NCBI GenBank assembly: GCA_964016885.1
Contig: OZ024750.1
Coordinates: forward strand, 42,098,001-42,162,000
Length of the DNA: 64,000 bases
From: Eledone cirrhosa
Taxonomy: Eukaryota
Reading direction: 5' to 3'
Shown: piece by piece, positions 29,943 to 60,548 of the stretch
How the letters are laid out: every line of letters starts with the position of its first letter
Position numbering within the stretch: the stretch's first letter is position 1
Position numbers and translations under genes: made by a program
The notes under the pieces: generated by a model
Seen by the model: only the letters and a program-made list of their open reading frames with translations
The model's database searches: none
Told to the model about the DNA's origin: nothing

Positions 29943-29979
<37 letters not shown>

Positions 29980-30176
29980 TGTAATAAACAACATAAGGCA
30001 ATTATTTCATTTACCAGTGGTTTCTTAAAAGCAAAAAAATTTTGCTTTCAATCATCAGAATGAAAAAATCCTGGTGTATTTATTGACGTTGGATTTTAAA
30101 AACCTATATATATATATATATAGATAGATATCAATGATATTAAATAAATGGAAACTATATTTATAAAACCATTTTT

Positions 30177-30236
30177 ATTCTATTATATATATTTCAAGGG
30201 TACCAAAAGTTTTGGTACGCTCTCATCAGATAAAAT
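30177..30236 (-). ncRNA. Type I minimal hammerhead ribozyme (minus-strand copy)
   Basis: Reverse complement reads attttat-CTGATGA-gagcgtaccaaa act tttggtaccctt-GAAA-tatata-TA-atagaat. Confidence 0.75.
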
Positions 30237-30334
30237 ACAAAATTTGTTTTATAAATAGTGACGTATCCCAGAAACCAGACCTTATCGGTTCAGGTTCAGT
30301 TTGGATATGTCACTATTTATAAAACTACTTTTGT

Positions 30335-30394
30335 ATTTTGTCTGATGAGAGCGTACCAAAGTTTTTGGTACTCTTGAAATGTATATAATAGAAT
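30335..30394 (+). ncRNA. Type I minimal hammerhead ribozyme
   Basis: attttgt-CTGATGA(30342-30348)-gagcgtaccaaa gtt tttggtactctt-GAAA(30376-30379)-tgtata-TA-atagaat. Predicted cleavage after 30387. Confidence 0.78.
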
Positions 30395-30503
30395 AAATAT
30401 GGTTTCCATTTATTAATATCATTGATATTATACTCCAGAGAGTGCTTCGAATCTGTTATAAATAAATTTGTTGAATAACCAACAAATTAAATATCTCTTT
30501 GCT

Positions 30504-30534
<31 letters not shown>

Positions 30535-30962
30535 ATATAATGTGTGTGTGTGTGTATACGTTTCCTTTTAAAACTTTGATAAAATCTTTTTCATATTTCA
30601 TTTAGTGTTCTGTTTTAAGATTCTTCCGTAAAGAGTTTACACACGCACACGCACACACACGTCAGAGCTATAGTTCTTTTAGATTTTAAACATACAAATT
30701 TTGAAGCATCGTGTGTGTGTATATATATATATATATACGCACATACATACACAATGAAATATATGGAGAATAATTCCATATTTGTTATTAATATTAATTT
30801 AATGTGTTATATTTCAAAAAGTTCCAGAGTATTGGAAAACAGCTTCTGACTTTCTCCAGAGTTAACGATCTCCTTAATTATTGAACTGCATAAATTCCGT
30901 TTCATTTATTTGCAGGAAGGGGGGGGGGGTATAATTAGTTCAAAGACTTTATTATTATTATT

Positions 30963-31639: not shown

Positions 31640-33447
31640 TGCTAGGTAGCTGTGTTGTAGATTGCTAGGTAGCTGTGTTGTAGATTGCTAGGTAACTGTG
31701 TTGTAGATTGCTAGGTAGCTGTGTTGTAGATTGCTAGGTAGCTGTGTTGTAGATTGCTAGGTAGCTGTGTTGTAGATTGCTAGGTAGCTGTGTTGTAGAT
31801 TGCTAGGTAGCTGTGTTGTAGATTGCTAGGTAGCTGTGTTGTAGATTGCTAGGTAGCTGTGTTGTAGATTGCTAGGTAGCTGTGTTGTAGATTGCTAGGT
31901 AGCTGTGTTGTAGATTGCTAGGTAGCTGTGTTGTAGATTGCTGGGTAGCTGTGTTGTAGATTGCTAGGTAGCTGTGTTGTAGATTGCTAGGTAGCTGTGT
32001 TGTAGATTGCTAGGTAGCTGTGTTGTAGATTGCTAGGTAGCTGTGTTGTAGATTGCTAGGTAGCTGTGTTGTAGATTGCTGGGTAGCTGTGTTGTAGATT
32101 GCTAGGTAGCTGTGTTGTAGATTGCTAGGTAGCTGTGTTGTAGATTGCTAGGTAGCTGTGTTGTAGATTGCTAGGTAGCTGTGTTGTAGATTGCTAGGTA
32201 GCCTGTGTTGTAGATTGCTAGGTAGCCTGTGTTGTAGATTGCTAGGTAGCCTGTGTTGTAGATTGCTAGGTAGCCTGTGTTGTAGATTGCTAGGTAGCCT
32301 GTGTTGTAGATTGCTAGGTAGTTGTGTTGTAGATTGCTAGATAGTTGTGTTGTAGATTGCTAGGTAGCTGTGTTGTAGATTGCTAGGTAGCTGTGTTGTA
32401 GATTGCTAGGTAGCTGTGTTGTAGATTGCTATGTAGCTGTGTTGTAGATTGCTGGGTAGCTGTGTTGTAGATTGCTAGGTAGCCTGTGTTGTAGATTGCT
32501 AGGTAGCCTGTGTTGTAGATTGCTAGGTAGCCTGTGTTGTAGATTGCTAGGTAGTTGTGTTGTAGATTGCTAGATAGTGTTGTAGATTGCTAGGTAGCTG
32601 TGTTGTAGATTGCTATGTAGCTGTGTTGTAGATTGCTAGGTAGCTGTGTTGTAGATTGCTAGGTAGCTGTGTTGTAGATTGCTAGGTAGCTGTGTTGTAG
32701 ATTGCTAGGTAGCTGTGTTGTAGATTGCTATGTAGCTGTGTTGTAGATTGCTGGGTAGCTGTGTTGTAGATTGCTAGGTAGCCTGTGTTGTAGATTGCTA
32801 GGTAGCCTGTGTTGTAGATTGCTAGGTAGCCTGTGTTGTAGATTGCTAGGTAGTTGTGTTGTAGATTGCTAGATAGTGTTGTAGATTGCTAGGTAGCTGT
32901 GTTGTAGATTGCTAGGTAGCTGTGTTGTAGATTGCTAGGTAGCTGTGTTGTAGATTGCTATGTAGCTGTGTTGTAGATTGCTAGGTAGCTGTGTTGTAGA
33001 TTGCTAGGTAGCCTGTGTTGTAGATTGCTAGGTAGCCTGTGTTGTAGATTGCTAGGTAGCCTGTGTTGTAGATTGCTAGGTAGCTGTGTTGTAGATTGCT
33101 AGGTAGCTGTGTTGTAGATTGCTAGATAGCTGTGTTGTAGATTGCTAGATAGCTGTGTTGTAGATTGCTAGATAGCTGTGTTGTAGATTGCTAGATAGCT
33201 GTGTTGTAGATTGCTAGATAGCTGTGCTGTAGATTGCTAGATAGCTGTGCTGTAGATTGCTAGATAGCTGTGCTGTAGATTGCTAGGTAGCCTGTGCTGT
33301 AGATTGCTAGGTAGCCTGTGTTGTAGATTGCTAGGTAGCCTGTGTTGTAGATTGCTAGGTAGCTGTGTTGTAGATTGCTAGGTAGCTGTGTTGTAGATTG
33401 CTAGGTAGCTGTGTTGTAGATAGCTGTGTAGCAGATTGCTAGATAGC
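31640..33447. repeat. 23-bp satellite, ~78 copies
   Basis: Unit gctaggtagctgtgttgtagatt with clustered variants (+c, gata, atgt). Confidence 0.97.
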
Positions 33448-44628: not shown

Positions 44629-44701
44629 GTGTGTGTGTGTGTGTGTATATAATAAATAAATAAGAGAGATGGTTTTATTTGTACATCTTCATTTTATCTA
44701 G

Positions 44702-44771
44702 TTTGTTATACATATTTCAAAGATGTAAGGTAGTTATATAATATCTACCTTACACGTTCTCTTCAGACAAA
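44702..44771 (-). ncRNA. Type I minimal hammerhead ribozyme with extended stem II
   Basis: Reverse complement reads tttgt-CTGAAGA-gaacgtgtaaggtag[loop]ctaccttacatcttt-GAAA-tatgta-TA-acaaa. Confidence 0.75.
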
Positions 44772-44936
44772 TCGAGATGCAATTCTCCATTGATATGCTA
44801 CTAGTCTGACATGTTGTTAACCTCGCCAACCAGTACTAAGGAACAAAATCCATGGAGTGCTTCACATCTGTTTAAGAATAAGTTGGCAGATTTTTTATCA
44901 ACCAATTTTCATCATCTGAATGTATACATACATATA

Positions 44937-51968: not shown

Positions 51969-53163
51969 TGTATGTATATATATATGTGTATGTATGTATA
52001 TATATATGTGTATGTATGTATATATATATGTGTATGTATGTATGTGTATATGTGTATGTATGTATATGTGTATGTGTATGTATGTATATGTGTATGTATG
52101 TATATGTGTATGTGTATGTATGTATATGTGTATGTATGTATATGTGTATGTATGTATATGTGTATGTATGTATATGTGTATGTATGTATATGTGTATGTA
52201 TGTATATGTGTATGTATGTATATGTGTATGTATGTATATATATGTGTATGTATGTATATATATGTGTATGTATGTATATATATGTGTATGTATGTATATA
52301 TATGTGTATGTATGTATATATATGTGTATGTATGTATATATATGTATGCATGTATATATATGTATGCATGTATATATGTGTATGTATGTATATATATATA
52401 TGTGTATGTATGTATATATATATATGTGTATGTATGTATATATGTGTGTATATATGTGTATGTATGTATATATGTGTGTATATATGTGTATGTATGTATA
52501 TATGTGTGTATATATGTGTATGTATGTATATATGTGTGTATATATGTGTATGTATGTATATATGTGTGTATATATGTGTATGTATGTATATATGCGTGTA
52601 TGTATATATGTATATATATATTGTATATATATATATATGCGTGTATGTATGTATATATGTATATATATATATTGTGTATATATATATATGCGTGTATGTA
52701 TATATATTGTATGTATATATATATGTATGTATATATATATGTATGTATATATATTGTATGTATATATATATATGTATGTATATATATATGTATGTATATA
52801 TATTGTATATATATATATATGCGTGTATGTATATATATATGTATGTATATATATTGTATATATATATATATGCGTGTATGTATATATATATGTATGTATA
52901 TATATTGTATATATATATATATGCGTGTATGTATATATATGTGTATGTATATATGTGTATGTATATATGTATATATATATGTATGTATGTATATATATGT
53001 GTATGTGTATATGTATATATATATATGTATGTATATATATGTGTATGTGTATATGTATATATATATATGTATGTATATATATGTGTATGTGTATATCTAT
53101 ATATATATATGTATGTATATATATGTGTATATGTATATATATGTATGTATATATGTGTATATG

Positions 53164-53200
<37 letters not shown>

Positions 53201-54141
53201 GTGTATATGTATATATATGTATGTATATATATGTGTATATGTATATATATGTGTATATGTATATATATGTATGTATATATATGTGTATATGTATATATAT
53301 GTGTATATATATATATATGTATATATATGTGTATATATATGTGTATATGTATATATATATATGTGTATATGTATATATATAAATGTGTATATATGTGTAT
53401 ATATATATGTGTATGTATATATGTATATATATGTGTATATATATATGTGTATGTATATATGTATATATATGTGTATGTATATGTGTATATATATATGTGT
53501 ATGTATATGTGTATATATATATGTGTATGTATATATATATGTGTATGTATATATATATATGTGTATGTATATATATATATCTATGTATATATGTATATAT
53601 ATATCTATGTATATATGTATATATATATCTATGTATATATATATCTATGTATATATGTATATATATATCTATGTATATATGTATATATATATCTATGTAT
53701 ATATATATATATATCTATGTATATATATATATATATCTATGTATATATATATATATCTATGTATATATATATATATCTATGTATATATATATATATATGT
53801 ATATATAGGTATATATATATATGTATGTATATATGTATATATATATATGTATGTATATATATATATGTATGTATATATATATATGTATGTATATATGTAT
53901 ATATATATATGTATGTATATATGTATATATATATATGTATGTATATATATATATATGTATGTATATATGTATATATATGTATGTATATATGTATATATAT
54001 ATATGTATGTATATATGTATATATATATATGTATGTATATATGTATATATATATATGTATGTATATATGTATATATATATATGTATGTATATATGTATAT
54101 ATATGTATATATGTATATATATATATATGTATATATATGTA

Positions 54142-54284
<143 letters not shown>

Positions 54285-54307
54285 ATATATATATATATGT
54301 ATATATG

Positions 54308-54442
<135 letters not shown>

Positions 54443-54460
54443 GTGTATATATATATATAT

Positions 54461-54505
<45 letters not shown>

Positions 54506-54519
54506 TGTATGTATATATG

Positions 54520-54708
<189 letters not shown>

Positions 54709-54722
54709 ATATATATATATAT

Positions 54723-54766
<44 letters not shown>

Positions 54767-54779
54767 GTATGTATATATG

Positions 54780-54920
<141 letters not shown>

Positions 54921-54950
54921 GTATATATATATGTGTATATATATATATAT

Positions 54951-54994
<44 letters not shown>

Positions 54995-55007
54995 GTATGT
55001 ATATATG

Positions 55008-55067
<60 letters not shown>

Positions 55068-55093
55068 TGTGTATATATATATATATATATGTG

Positions 55094-55144
<51 letters not shown>

Positions 55145-55199
55145 GTATGTATATATGTATATATATATATGTATATATATATATATGTATGTATATATG

Positions 55200-55230
<31 letters not shown>

Positions 55231-55235
55231 ATATG

Positions 55236-55304
<69 letters not shown>

Positions 55305-55393
55305 GTATATATGTATATATATGTATATATGTATATATATGTATATATGTATATATATATATATATGTATATATGTATATATATGTATATATG

Positions 55394-55428
<35 letters not shown>

Positions 55429-55431
55429 GTA

Positions 55432-55511
<80 letters not shown>

Positions 55512-55599
55512 TATGTATGTATATATGTATATATATATATATATATATGTATGTATATATGTATATATGTATATATGTATATATGTATATATGTATATA

Positions 55600-55632
<33 letters not shown>

Positions 55633-55647
55633 ATATATATATATGTA

Positions 55648-55694
<47 letters not shown>

Positions 55695-56053
55695 ATATAT
55701 ATATATATATGTATGTTCGTGGTTATGTGTATATTTATGCATATACGCGCGTGTATGTGTGATTGTACTGATATGTGTGAGTATGAAAAAAAATATATTT
55801 ATATGCTTGACTCCATAAGTATCAATGCGCATCTTATCAGCGCATTTTAAGCTTACAGAGATATTAACCTTGAAATTTTGTGTTTGCATCCATCTTTTTA
55901 GTATGCGTATACAAGTTATACATACATTTTTGTAAAATATGTGTAAGGATTTTACATGTATATACACACACCGAACTGCTTTTAACCCTTTGTGTTTTCA
56001 TTGGTCAATTTTGAACTGAAATTTTGAATTGTTGTTATTATCAATAAATATAC

Positions 56054-56208
56054 TTCATTATTTGTGAAGACGGCGTATATATGTGTTAGGTATGTATATT
56101 TAATCTTGATAATTTGTATAATTTTGTATAATTTTGTACATAGATCTGTTGAATATGCATACCAATTATAACACATATATACCCTAGAAACGATCGTTAA
56201 ATAATGAA
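56054..56208 (+). ncRNA. Type I hammerhead ribozyme with very long stem II (core C3 mutated to G, probably inactive)
   Basis: Perfect 10-bp stem I ttcattattt/aaataatgaa, gTGAAGA, stem II gtatatatgtgtta/taacacatatatac plus ggtatgtatattt/gaatatgcatacc, and GAAA-cgatcg-TT. Confidence 0.72.
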
Positions 56209-56281
56209 CTTTTTTTGTTTAATATAAGGAATTGTTTATTCATTATTTGTTTAATATTTTATATATATATATATGTATATA

Positions 56282-56346
<65 letters not shown>

Positions 56347-56357
56347 GTATATATGTA

Positions 56358-56388
<31 letters not shown>

Positions 56389-56409
56389 ATATATATATAT
56401 GTATATATG

Positions 56410-56476
<67 letters not shown>

Positions 56477-56483
56477 GTATATG

Positions 56484-56526
<43 letters not shown>

Positions 56527-56739
56527 ATATATATATATGTATGTGTATATATATGTATATATGTATGTGTATATATATGTATATATGTATGTATATATAT
56601 ATATATATATATGTATGTATATATATATGTATATATGTATGTATATATATATATATATATATGTATGTATATATATATATATATATGTATGTATATATAT
56701 ATATATATATATGTATGTATATATATATATATATATGTA

Positions 56740-56775
<36 letters not shown>

Positions 56776-56909
56776 TATATATATATATGTATGTATATAT
56801 ATATATATGTATGTATATATATATATATGTATGTATGTATATATATATATATGTATGTATGTATATATATATATATGTATGTATATATATATATATATGT
56901 ATGTATGTA

Positions 56910-56943
<34 letters not shown>

Positions 56944-56959
56944 TATATATATATATGTA

Positions 56960-57055
<96 letters not shown>

Positions 57056-57235
57056 TATATATATATGTATATATGTATGTATATATATATGTATATATGT
57101 ATGTATATATATATGTATATATGTATGTATATATATATATGTATATATGTATGTATATATATATGTATATATGTATGTATATATATATATGTATATATAT
57201 ATGTATATATGTATGTATATATATATATGTATATA

Positions 57236-57272
<37 letters not shown>

Positions 57273-57613
57273 ATGTATATATATGTATATATATATGTAT
57301 GTATATATATATATATATGTATATATATATGTATGTATATATATATATATATGTATGTATATATATGTATATATATATGTATGTATATATATATATATAT
57401 ATGTGTATGTATATATATGTATATATATATGTATGTATATATATATATATATATATGTGTATGTATATATATGTATATATATATGTATGTATATATATAT
57501 ATATATGTATGTATATATGTATATATATATGTATGTATATATGTATATATATGTATGTATATATGTATATATATGTATGTATATATGTATGTATATATGT
57601 ATATATATGTATG

Positions 57614-57647
<34 letters not shown>

Positions 57648-58541
57648 TATATATATATATGTATGTATATATATATATATGTATATATGTATATATGTAT
57701 ATATATGTATATGTATATATGTATATATATGTATATATATATATGTATGTATATATATATGTATGTATATATGTATGTATGTATGTATATATATATATGT
57801 ATGTATATATATATGTATGTATATATATATGTATGTATATATATATGTATGTATATATATGTATATATATATATGTATATATATATATGTATGTATATAT
57901 ATATATATGTATATATGTATATATATATATGTATGTATATATATATATGTGTATATATGTATATATGTATATATATATATGTATGTATATATGTATATAT
58001 GTATATATATATGTATGTATATATATATATGTGTATATATATATATATGTATATATATATATGTATGTATATATATATATGTATGTATATATATATATGT
58101 GTATATATATATATGTATATATGTATATATATATATGTGTATATATATATATGTATATATGTATATATATATATGTATGTATATATATATATGTGTATAT
58201 ATATATATGTATATATGTATATATATATATGTATGTATATATATATATGTGTATATATATATATGTATATATGTATATATATGTATGTATATATATATAT
58301 GTATATATATATATGTATATATGTATATATATGTATGTATATATATATATATATGTATGTATGTATGTATATATATATATGTATATGTATATATATGTAT
58401 GTATGTATGTATGTATATATATATATGTATGTATGTATGTATATATATGTATGTATGTATATATATATATGTATATATATATATGTATGTATGTATGTAT
58501 ATATATGTATGTATGTATATATATATATGTATGTATGTATG

Positions 58542-58574
<33 letters not shown>

Positions 58575-59182
58575 ATATATGTATGTATGTATGTATATAT
58601 ATGTATGTATGTATGTATATATATATATGTATGTATGTATGTATATATATGTATGTATGTATGTATGTATATGTATGTATGTATGTATATGTATGTATGT
58701 ATGTATATATATGTATGTATGTATGTATATATATGTATGTATGTATGTATGTATATATATATATGTATGTATGTATATATATATATGTATGTATGTATGT
58801 ATATATATATATGTATGTATGTATGTATATATATATATATGTATGTATGTATGTATATATATGTATGTATGTATGTATATATATATATGTATGTATGTAT
58901 GTATATATATATATGTATATATATGTATGTATGTATGTATATGTATGTATGTATGTATGTATATGTATGTATGTATGTATATATATATATGTATGTATGT
59001 ATATATATATATATGTATGTATGTATATATATATATGTATGTATGTATGTGTATGTATATATATGTATGTATGTATGTATGTATATATATGTATGTATAT
59101 ATGTATATATATATATGTATGTATATATGTATATATATATATGTATGTATATATGTATATATATATATGTATGTATATATGT

Positions 59183-59220
<38 letters not shown>

Positions 59221-59617
59221 GTATGTATGTGTATATATGTATGTATGTATGTATATATATATATGTATGTATATATATATGTATGTATATATTATATATA
59301 TATGTATGTATATATATATGTATGTATATATATATATGTATATATTATATATATATATGTAATTATATATTATATGTATATGTATATTATGTATATATGT
59401 ATATATATTATATGTATATGTATATATATATATGTATATTATATATGTATATATGTATATATATATATATATGTATATATGTATATATATATATATATAT
59501 GTATATGTATATATGTATATATATATATGTATATATGTATATATATATATATATATGTATATGTATATATGTGTATATGTATATATGTATATATGTGTAT
59601 ATGTATATATGTATATA

Positions 59618-59648
<31 letters not shown>

Positions 59649-59750
59649 GTATATGTATATATGTATATATGTATATATATATATATATATGTATATGTGT
59701 ATATGTATATATGTATATGTATATATGTATATATATATATGTATATGTAT

Positions 59751-59781
<31 letters not shown>

Positions 59782-59782
59782 T

Positions 59783-59813
<31 letters not shown>

Positions 59814-60474
59814 TATATATATATGTATGTATATATGTATATATATATATATGTATGTATATATGTATGTATATATGTATATATATATATATGTGTATAT
59901 GTATATATGTATATATATATATGTATGTATATATGTATATATATGTATGTATATATATATATGTATATATGTATATATATATGTGTATGTATATATGTAT
60001 GTATATATATATATGTATATATGTATATATATATGTGTATGTATATATGTATGTATATATGTATATATATATATGTATGTATATATGTATATATATATAT
60101 GTATATATGTATATATATATGTGTATGTATATATGTATATGTATATATGTATATATATATATGTGTATGTATATATGTATATATATATATGTGTATGTAT
60201 ATATGTGTATGTATATATGTATATATATATATGTGTATGTATATATGTGTATGTATATATGTATATATATATATGTGTATGTATATATGTGTATGTATAT
60301 ATGTGTATGTATATATGTGTATGTATATATGTGTATGTATATATGTGTATGTATATGTGTATGTATATATGTGTGTATATATGTATATATATATGTTTGT
60401 GTGTGTATATATGTATGTATATTTTACCTTGCCTTCGGATTTTCATTTTGATATATATATATATATATATACAT

Positions 60475-60548
<74 letters not shown>

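What the first reader, a model, noticed from the sequence alone, without database searches (positions are those of the whole stretch)
30128..30504. Second, sequence-divergent double-hammerhead palindrome with the same architecture
It has the same layout as 1738-2104 ((TA)n, antisense ribozyme arm, spacer, sense arm, actccag..gagtgcttc tail, (TA)n) but largely different sequence and a 12-bp stem II. Its arms have diverged by several substitutions and one indel, yet both cores (CTGATGA, GAAA, AUA) are intact. Independent recurrence shows the palindrome is a feature of the family's integration mechanism, not a one-off accident.
Basis: partly seen in the sequence, partly recalled or inferred. Interest (0 to 1): 0.75.

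Follow-up and report, generated by a model that had tools for sequence, protein, structure and literature searches.

The report
Head-to-head Penelope retroelement ends
This 377-base hairpin is two back-to-back copies of the tail end of an abundant Penelope-type jumping gene sitting in a TA repeat, each carrying a predicted self-cutting RNA motif; the layout is a known footprint of such elements, so it is ordinary in kind.

Summary
In detail: an inverted arm and a direct arm with a 75-nt tail lie between (TA)n runs, and each arm has a type I hammerhead motif. It is a heavily 5'-truncated insertion of a Penelope-like retrotransposon (PLE). In other copies the same arm continues upstream into a 3' UTR and an RT plus GIY-YIG reading frame with Hydra-clade motifs, and the tail continues into the next unit's 5' UTR and ATG. 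The genome holds 986 tailed and 1,186 tail-less ends by one exact 27-mer; 22 of the first 30 tailed ends have an inverted partner. The element at 1738-2104 belongs to a sister family (49-53% protein identity). Inverted pLTR, one-sided tail, hammerhead and (TA)n targeting are all published PLE features, and this scan has noted them often in this genome. Of residual interest: either arm can be the longer and junctions show excess microhomology, which favours priming from both DNA ends.

The parts
29944..29975 (.). (TA)n, target of the neighbouring third-family element
29976..30103 (-). Separate, much younger PLE 3' end (third family, tail-less single arm) with its own type I hammerhead (CTGATGA at 30058, predicted cut after 30012); not part of the palindrome
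   Evidence: best copies 99-100% identical; tail runs into an RT/GIY-YIG frame in L300
30104..30127 (.). Left (TA)n target run
30128..30307 (-). Inverted, tail-less arm: last ~180 nt of the PLE unit (pLTR), ending exactly at the unit's 3' end
30176..30237 (-). Type I minimal hammerhead motif of the inverted arm (core 30229-30223; predicted cut after 30184)
30303..30307 (.). Inversion junction; 5-nt overlap between the two arms when read against the copy's own other arm (2 nt against the best outside template)
30303..30428 (+). Direct arm: last ~125 nt of the unit (with a 14-nt deletion)
30334..30395 (+). Type I minimal hammerhead motif: stem I 30334-41/30388-95, CTGATGA 30342-48, stem II 30349-75, GAAA 30376-79, 2-bp palindromic stem III, predicted cut after 30387
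30429..30504 (+). PLE 'tail' = first ~75 nt of the next unit's 5' UTR (here with a short deletion after ACTCCAGA); in long copies it continues ~55 nt to the ATG
30504..30539 (.). Right (TA)n target run
1738..2104 (+). Same layout from a sister Hydra-type PLE family (inverted arm, direct arm 1885-2011, tail 2012-2102)

Best explanation
The hairpin is a short, reading-frame-less insertion of a Penelope-like retrotransposon with Hydra-clade motifs: two 5'-truncated copies of the element's 3' end joined head to head in a TA microsatellite, one carrying the extra tail, likely made when the element's enzyme copied its RNA onto both ends of one DNA cut. Shown: the arm is the 3' end of a ~3.8-kb unit with RT and C-terminal GIY-YIG domains; the tail is the 5' UTR of the following unit; both outer ends are fixed while the inner junction varies from copy to copy; long copies with the reading frame have the same head-to-head layout. 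Inferred: the endonuclease cuts (TA)n, reverse transcription starts at two fixed RNA sites ~75 nt apart (unit end and tail end) on a tandem or circular transcript, one from each DNA end, both cDNAs stop early, and their 3' ends are joined by microhomology. The hammerheads are passengers of the pLTR; they probably process tandem transcripts of active elements (as dimers or with protein help) and have no shown role in this copy.
For: Arm continues into shared upstream sequence and an ORF with DKT, YRDD, CNCx5C, VYKC..YIG, CHLC and CRH motifs; tail continues to MEFFKISSSLKDVPLP..RLRWRAF in long copies. 803 homologous proteins, mostly ~700 aa, with the same motifs; a profile of 30 of them matches only a retron RT in PDB (E=0.007); by eye the ORF follows the Hydra rows, not the Penelope/Poseidon, Nematis or Neptune rows, of the alignment in the PMC8557442 supplement. 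Exact 27-mer counts 986 tailed and 1,186 tail-less ends, controls 0. Of the first 30 tailed ends on contig 1, 22 have an inverted partner within 1.5 kb, 7 are single, 1 runs off; 16 of the 18 partner ends located are tail-less. Tail-only search: 16 of 29 by script. ORF-bearing head-to-head copies: L091, L092, L094 and L299 for the sister family. Two-ended priming: in the position-ordered tailed set the tailed arm is longer in 8, the partner in 7, equal in 5 of 20, and in L233, L222, L094 and L091 the tail-less arm is longer by a kilobase or more, which fold-back of one tailed cDNA cannot give; junction microhomology averages 1.76 nt (33 of 41 junctions used) against 0.70 in synthetic junctions. 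Arms of one copy are closer (5.6%) than arms of different copies (8.8%) and share 91 non-majority states. Literature: inverted 5'-truncated copy, one-sided tail, hammerheads and (TA)n for Hydra (PMC8557442); both strands cut and extended, two RT start sites that define the tail (PMC11167929).
Against: No intact ORF was seen among the copies fetched, and the local Pfam gave no match for our three ORF pieces. Clade placement rests on motifs and a by-eye comparison, not a tree. The unit (~3.8 kb, 3' UTR ~1.45 kb) is longer than the <3 kb given for Hydra, and the N-terminal motif reads RWR rather than RWK. About half of the tail-less ends (15 of 30) and 7 of 30 tailed ends have no partner within 1.5 kb, so one-sided insertions or later loss are common; one insertion in that set is tailed on both sides. 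Arm lengths were called against one reference, which cuts alignments short in other subfamilies. Later deletions in the middle of a palindrome would also give asymmetry and microhomology. In one search, 8 of 41 junctions were dropped (<90% fit), two both-tailed insertions were counted twice, and the set is enriched for copies like the query. The window copy's own arms are not each other's nearest neighbours (ranks 7 and 17 of 30).
Confidence: 0.9

Rival explanations
1. Same PLE origin, but the inversion arises by self-priming or fold-back of a single nucleic-acid strand (as proposed for Adineta Penelope elements, on an antisense template), with later central deletions creating the asymmetry.
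For: Proposed in PMC3846280 (Discussion read). Some junctions are near-perfect hairpins (L048, L194/L223, L115). Arms share private variants, which a fold-back explains as well.
Against: Tail-less arm is the longer about as often as the tailed arm, sometimes by 1-2.5 kb; both outer ends are fixed at two different RNA positions, matching the two RT start sites seen in vitro (PMC11167929).
Confidence: 0.3
2. The short palindrome is itself a non-autonomous element that is transcribed and copied as a unit (master palindrome with a fixed loop).
For: The same junction recurs at unlinked loci (L001/L018/L020; L013/L030); many short copies have a similar size (~330-350 nt between outer ends).
Against: Junctions are mostly different; the recurrent ones sit on a natural short inverted match in the 3' UTR (up to 10 nt in L185), which explains recurrence without inheritance; arm lengths run continuously from <50 nt to >2 kb; a suspected arm-specific marker proved to be a subfamily marker found in both arm types.
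Confidence: 0.07
3. A MITE or fold-back DNA transposon, or an assembly artefact.
For: Short, AT-rich, inverted-repeat, TA-inserted, high copy number.
Against: Arms are the 3' end of an RT-encoding unit; one end carries an unpaired tail; arms differ by 9 substitutions and 2 indels, unlike an artefact; thousands of independent loci.
Confidence: 0.01
4. The two hammerheads are kept by selection in the palindrome (functional bidirectional ribozyme or dsRNA element).
For: Core positions differ between arms in 11 of 330 cells against 18.6 expected from base-specific rates.
Against: Raw comparison 11/330 vs 140/3052, Fisher p=0.40; the base-specific rates include a CpG site that the core lacks; 9 of 30 palindromes have at least one damaged core; the read-through RNA is predicted to fold as an arm-arm hairpin (-182 vs -112 kcal/mol with hammerhead stems enforced).
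Confidence: 0.05

Closest known systems
Hydra clade of C-terminal EN+ Penelope-like elements (Craig et al. 2021, PMC8557442: abstract, passages, section 11, supplement parts 2 and 58), including Penelope-13_HM with its inverted 5'-truncated copy and Hydra-1_Obim
   Same: C-terminal GIY-YIG, DKT, CxCx5C linker, CxxC and CxH in the endonuclease, hammerhead ~45-100 nt from the 3' end, (TA)n insertion, inverted 5'-truncated copy, tail at one end.
   Different: Different family (the listed Hydra-1_Obim hammerhead has another sequence); unit ~3.8 kb with ~1.45-kb 3' UTR and an Asn-rich stretch; RWR for RWK; tail ~75 nt rather than 30-40; 2-bp stem III rather than 3-4 bp; this copy holds no ORF.
Dual opposite-strand minimal hammerheads of truncated Cercyon PLEs in Schistosoma mansoni (Cervera and de la Pena 2014, PMC4209133: first quarter and passages)
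   Same: Two minimal type I hammerheads on opposite strands 100-700 bp apart, long stem II, palindromic short stem III.
   Different: Other PLE clade and host; that paper did not analyse the junctions or tail.
PAc (Poseidon) of Anolis, in vitro (Frangieh et al. 2024, PMC11167929: first half of text)
   Same: AT-rich target, tail defined by two RT start sites, both strands cut and extended, hammerhead not needed for insertion.
   Different: There the tail lies inside the ORF and the hammerhead overlaps the start codon; here tail is 5' UTR and the ATG lies ~130 nt into the unit. The paper does not derive the inverted copy from two-ended priming in the part read.
Animal non-LTR retrozymes (bioRxiv 10.64898/2026.07.22.740005: first fifth; PMC7229834: search listing only)
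   Same: ORF-less, type I hammerhead, related to PLE pLTRs.
   Different: Retrozymes are tandem direct repeats of a self-contained monomer; here arms are inverted, of variable length, and continuous with the 3' UTR and ORF of an autonomous family.

Membership tests
EN+ Penelope-like elements | Single ORF with RT and GIY-YIG endonuclease linked to the repeat | tested here: met
   In other copies of the family, not in this one; profile hit to a retron RT; GIY-YIG Pfam hit in 1 of 30 aligned proteins, not in ours
EN+ Penelope-like elements | pLTR formed by partial tandem copy; inverted 5'-truncated copy at the 5' side | tested here: met
   Direct pLTR before the ORF in L130-L154; inverted partners in 22 of 30 tailed ends
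EN+ Penelope-like elements | Tail at one end only, derived from the sequence following the pLTR | tested here: met
   ~75 nt
EN+ Penelope-like elements | Hammerhead motif in the pLTR | tested here: met
   Sequence and predicted fold only; cleavage not tested
EN+ Penelope-like elements | Target-site duplication or microsatellite target | tested here: inconclusive
   (TA)n on both sides hides any duplication
Hydra clade | C-terminal endonuclease, DKG changed to DKT | tested here: met
   L092, L095, L130-L154 translations
Hydra clade | CxCx5C linker; CxxC and CxH around conserved E and N; no CCHH | tested here: met
   CNCRDESNC, CHLC, CRH, compared by eye with supplement alignment
Hydra clade | N-terminal RWK motif | tested here: inconclusive
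   RWR/KWR here; RWK in the third family and in 1 of 4 homologs read, RWR in 3
Hydra clade | Insertion into (TA)n | tested here: met
Hydra clade | Generally short (<3 kb; a tendency, not a rule) | tested here: not met
   ~3.8 kb, added up from overlapping natural copies
Hydra clade | Monophyly with named Hydra elements in an RT tree | not testable with these tools
   Named reference proteins were visible only as supplement text and could not be loaded
Non-LTR retrozymes | Tandem direct repeats, hammerhead in each monomer, no coding partner in cis | tested here: not met
MITE / fold-back DNA transposon | Symmetric terminal inverted repeats derived from a transposase element | tested here: not met
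   Asymmetric tail; arms derive from an RT element

The most novel reading that the evidence does not exclude
Hydra-type PLEs integrate by two-ended priming as the rule: both ends of a cut (TA)n prime on the same tandem or circular RNA at two fixed sites, and the two cDNAs are sealed head to head by microhomology. The thousands of palindromes would then be a genomic record that settles how PLE inverted copies and one-sided tails arise, against the self-priming model.
Probability: 0.55. Interest if true: 0.5.

Novelty: new member of a known kind. Interest (0 to 1): 0.25.

Why it matters
As a locus it is one decayed copy among thousands. Its value is as data: how PLEs form inverted copies and tails is stated to be open (PMC8557442, discussion passage), and these families give thousands of junctions with which two-ended priming and self-priming can be told apart. 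It also shows that Hydra-clade PLEs are far more numerous and varied in this genome (at least four hammerhead-bearing end families in one 64-kb window) than the single octopus family listed in that paper's supplement, and that short copies could be misfiled as MITEs or miRNA hairpins.

Tried and rejected
1) A fixed RNA 5' end ~55 nt upstream of the arm core, suggested by the first 30 loci: rejected; it was query bias, and tail-selected copies extend kilobases further. 2) Arm-specific inherited differences (extra T only in tail-less arms of L001, L007, L009): rejected as a rule; among the first 30 of 300 exact hits the variant lies on tailed and tail-less ends alike and located partners mostly share it, with two discordant pairs of opposite polarity. 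Whether discordant pairs reflect two templates or T-run slippage is open. 3) Shared junction in L013/L030 as proof of palindrome copying: rejected; it lies on a natural inverted match in that subfamily. 4) Selection on cores: not significant. 5) Rfam scans: no hammerhead family listed (of which 150 of 238 rows were shown, and 47). 6) Pfam: no hit for our ORF pieces; a family search with a recalled accession was not possible. 7) Sequencing runs: no RNA holder listed; no reads were laid. 8) Paper searches 'twin priming + Penelope + inverted' (2 papers, listing only, neither on PLE mechanism by title), 'octopus + Penelope + hammerhead', searches found no paper describing these families or two-ended priming for PLEs; the library lacks most subscription papers (e.g. 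Arkhipova 2006, Evgen'ev and Arkhipova 2005, not read) and Repbase was not searchable, so the family may already be named there. PMC13282606 (passages) lists Penelope-like families in Octopus vulgaris without structural detail.

Full report
Observation. The sequence at 30128-30504 is as described. Self-comparison gives one inverted repeat from 30128 to 30428 (E=3e-82). A type I hammerhead descriptor of my own finds six sites in the window, two of them here (CTGATGA at 30342 plus, predicted cut after 30387; at 30229 minus, cut after 30184), and none in 30 block shuffles. Stem I has 8 pairs, stem II 11 of 12, stem III 2 pairs within a self-complementary 8-mer; the arms differ by 9 substitutions and indels of 14 and 1 nt. 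Rfam lists no hammerhead family for the region. A transcript of either strand carries one hammerhead in sense and is predicted to fold as a long arm-arm hairpin (-182 kcal/mol against -112 with hammerhead stems I and II enforced).

Copy number and layout. The window lies in a 3.0-Gb animal assembly; I take the host to be an octopod from the one named animal homolog (Argonauta) and from recalled SINE sequences, which is inference. The whole element gave 4,360 first-look candidates; all 40 scored places matched on both strands, a set biased towards palindromes. Unbiased counts came from the end of the arm: an exact 27-mer occurs 986 times followed by the tail's first base and 1,186 times followed by TA, a one-base variant 300 times, with 0 control hits. 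Among the first 30 tailed ends on contig 1, 22 have an inverted partner within 1.5 kb, 7 are single and 1 runs off the locus; among the first 30 tail-less ends, 14, 15 and 1; the two sets partly see the same insertions from both sides. Of 29 copies picked by the tail alone, 16 have an inverted arm by script. Both outer ends are fixed; the junction varies.

What the arm belongs to. Tail-selected copies extend upstream through shared sequence. [quoted passage not shown] A search with the frame's 5' part returned copies in which arm and tail lie directly before the frame: the tail continues about 55 nt to an ATG opening MEFFKISSSLKDVPLP..RLRWRAF. The tail is therefore the 5' UTR of the next unit and the arm is the pseudo-LTR. 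All frames seen are broken. The RT piece has 803 homologs, most about 700 aa; four read in full carry the same motifs. Local Pfam missed our pieces; a profile of 30 proteins matched one PDB chain, a retron RT (E=0.007). Craig et al. (PMC8557442; section 11; supplement parts 2 and 58) define the Hydra clade by these motifs, hammerheads and (TA)n insertion, and by eye our frame follows their Hydra rows. Long insertions have the same head-to-head form: L092 (tailed arm long), L094 and L091.

The other window element. The 1738-2104 element has its own family (1,568 candidates), with inverted partners in 16 of 29 tail-selected copies. L299 shows inverted tail-less arm, RT and endonuclease frame, direct arm and tail over 4.2 kb, 49-53% identical in protein to the present family. 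The two are sister families, which explains the shared layout and the shared start of the tail.

Mechanism. Published: inverted 5'-truncated copy and one-sided tail are typical of EN+ PLEs (PMC8557442 passages; PMC8969392 passages; PMC3846280 passages and discussion); opposite-strand hammerhead pairs 100-700 bp apart were noted in Schistosoma (PMC4209133); the purified Anolis PLE protein cuts and extends both strands of AT-rich DNA and starts at two RNA sites that define the tail, without needing hammerhead cleavage (PMC11167929). My inference is that each DNA end primes one cDNA, one from each start site, and that the two are joined by microhomology. For it: the tailed arm is longer in 8, the partner in 7, equal in 5 of 20 (one both-tailed insertion contributes one to each of the first two); the tail-less arm is longer by kilobases in several copies; microhomology averages 1.76 nt in 33 of 41 junctions against 0.70 in synthetic ones, with none of 20,000 resamples reaching it. 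Against it: later deletions in palindromes give the same signs, extents were called on one reference, 8 junctions were dropped and 2 counted twice. I put two-ended priming at about 0.55 and self-priming (PMC3846280) at about 0.3. I wrote this idea down before seeing that other notes of this scan propose it for retrozyme arrays in the same genome; those notes are not independent support.

Recurrence: confirmed. Intact cores: both cores are intact in 21 of 30 palindromes and core columns are not significantly more conserved (11/330 vs 140/3052, p=0.40; 18.6 expected on base-specific rates), so this is what modest age gives. Clock: arms within a copy differ by 5.6% against 8.8% between copies, own partner is nearest in 12 of 30, and 91 non-majority states are shared by both arms against 230 on one arm (some distances are inflated by junction columns). 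So arms mostly start alike, but the window copy's arms (7.3%) are not mutual nearest neighbours, and conversion between arms or two templates cannot be excluded. A suspected arm-specific marker was a subfamily marker.

Verdict. A real but ordinary, decayed insertion of an apparently undescribed Hydra-type PLE family; the architecture is published and this scan has 351 notes fitting these words in this genome and similar ones in other genomes. Searches found no description of this family or of two-ended priming in PLEs, but subscription papers and Repbase were not covered. Interest 0.25.

Noticed in passing
window 29976-30103 (minus): A third, very young hammerhead-bearing PLE end directly left of the finding (copies 99-100% identical, 1,129 candidates, many head to head with a ~70-nt tail). 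In L300 its tail runs into a nearly open frame with RWK and DKT motifs. Best family for testing the insertion mechanism.
   Followed up: partly
window 44650-44925: A fourth family: inverted arm with a hammerhead (CTGAAGA at 44766 minus) joined directly to a tail-like stretch containing GAGTGCTTC; direct arm absent.
   Followed up: no
window 9019-9079: A 61-nt tail-less end of the same family as the finding, alone in (TA)n.
   Followed up: no
window 30432-30449 and 2017-2047: The start of the tail (ACTCCAG..GAGTGCTTC) is shared between sister families and can form a small stem-loop just after the first inferred RT start site; a candidate protein-binding or promoter element.
   Followed up: partly
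L016/L029 (G000:C143:56225-56644), L220/L221: Rare palindromes with the tail on both arms; L016 is nearly perfect.
   Followed up: no
L092 5760-5950 (oriented minus) and related copies: Asn-rich stretch between RT thumb and the linker, reminiscent of the N-rich inserts described in Adineta Penelope ORFs (PMC3846280).
   Followed up: no
window 12638-18975, 31640-33432, 51971-60542: Long tandem arrays: 44-bp unit x144, 23-bp unit x77, and an 8.5-kb TA/TG-rich microsatellite.
   Followed up: no
L085 3060-3760 (oriented minus); L063 3055-3740: Unrelated mobile genes beside family copies: a Tc1/mariner-like transposase frame and a non-LTR RT frame (named from recalled motifs, not from a call).
   Followed up: no
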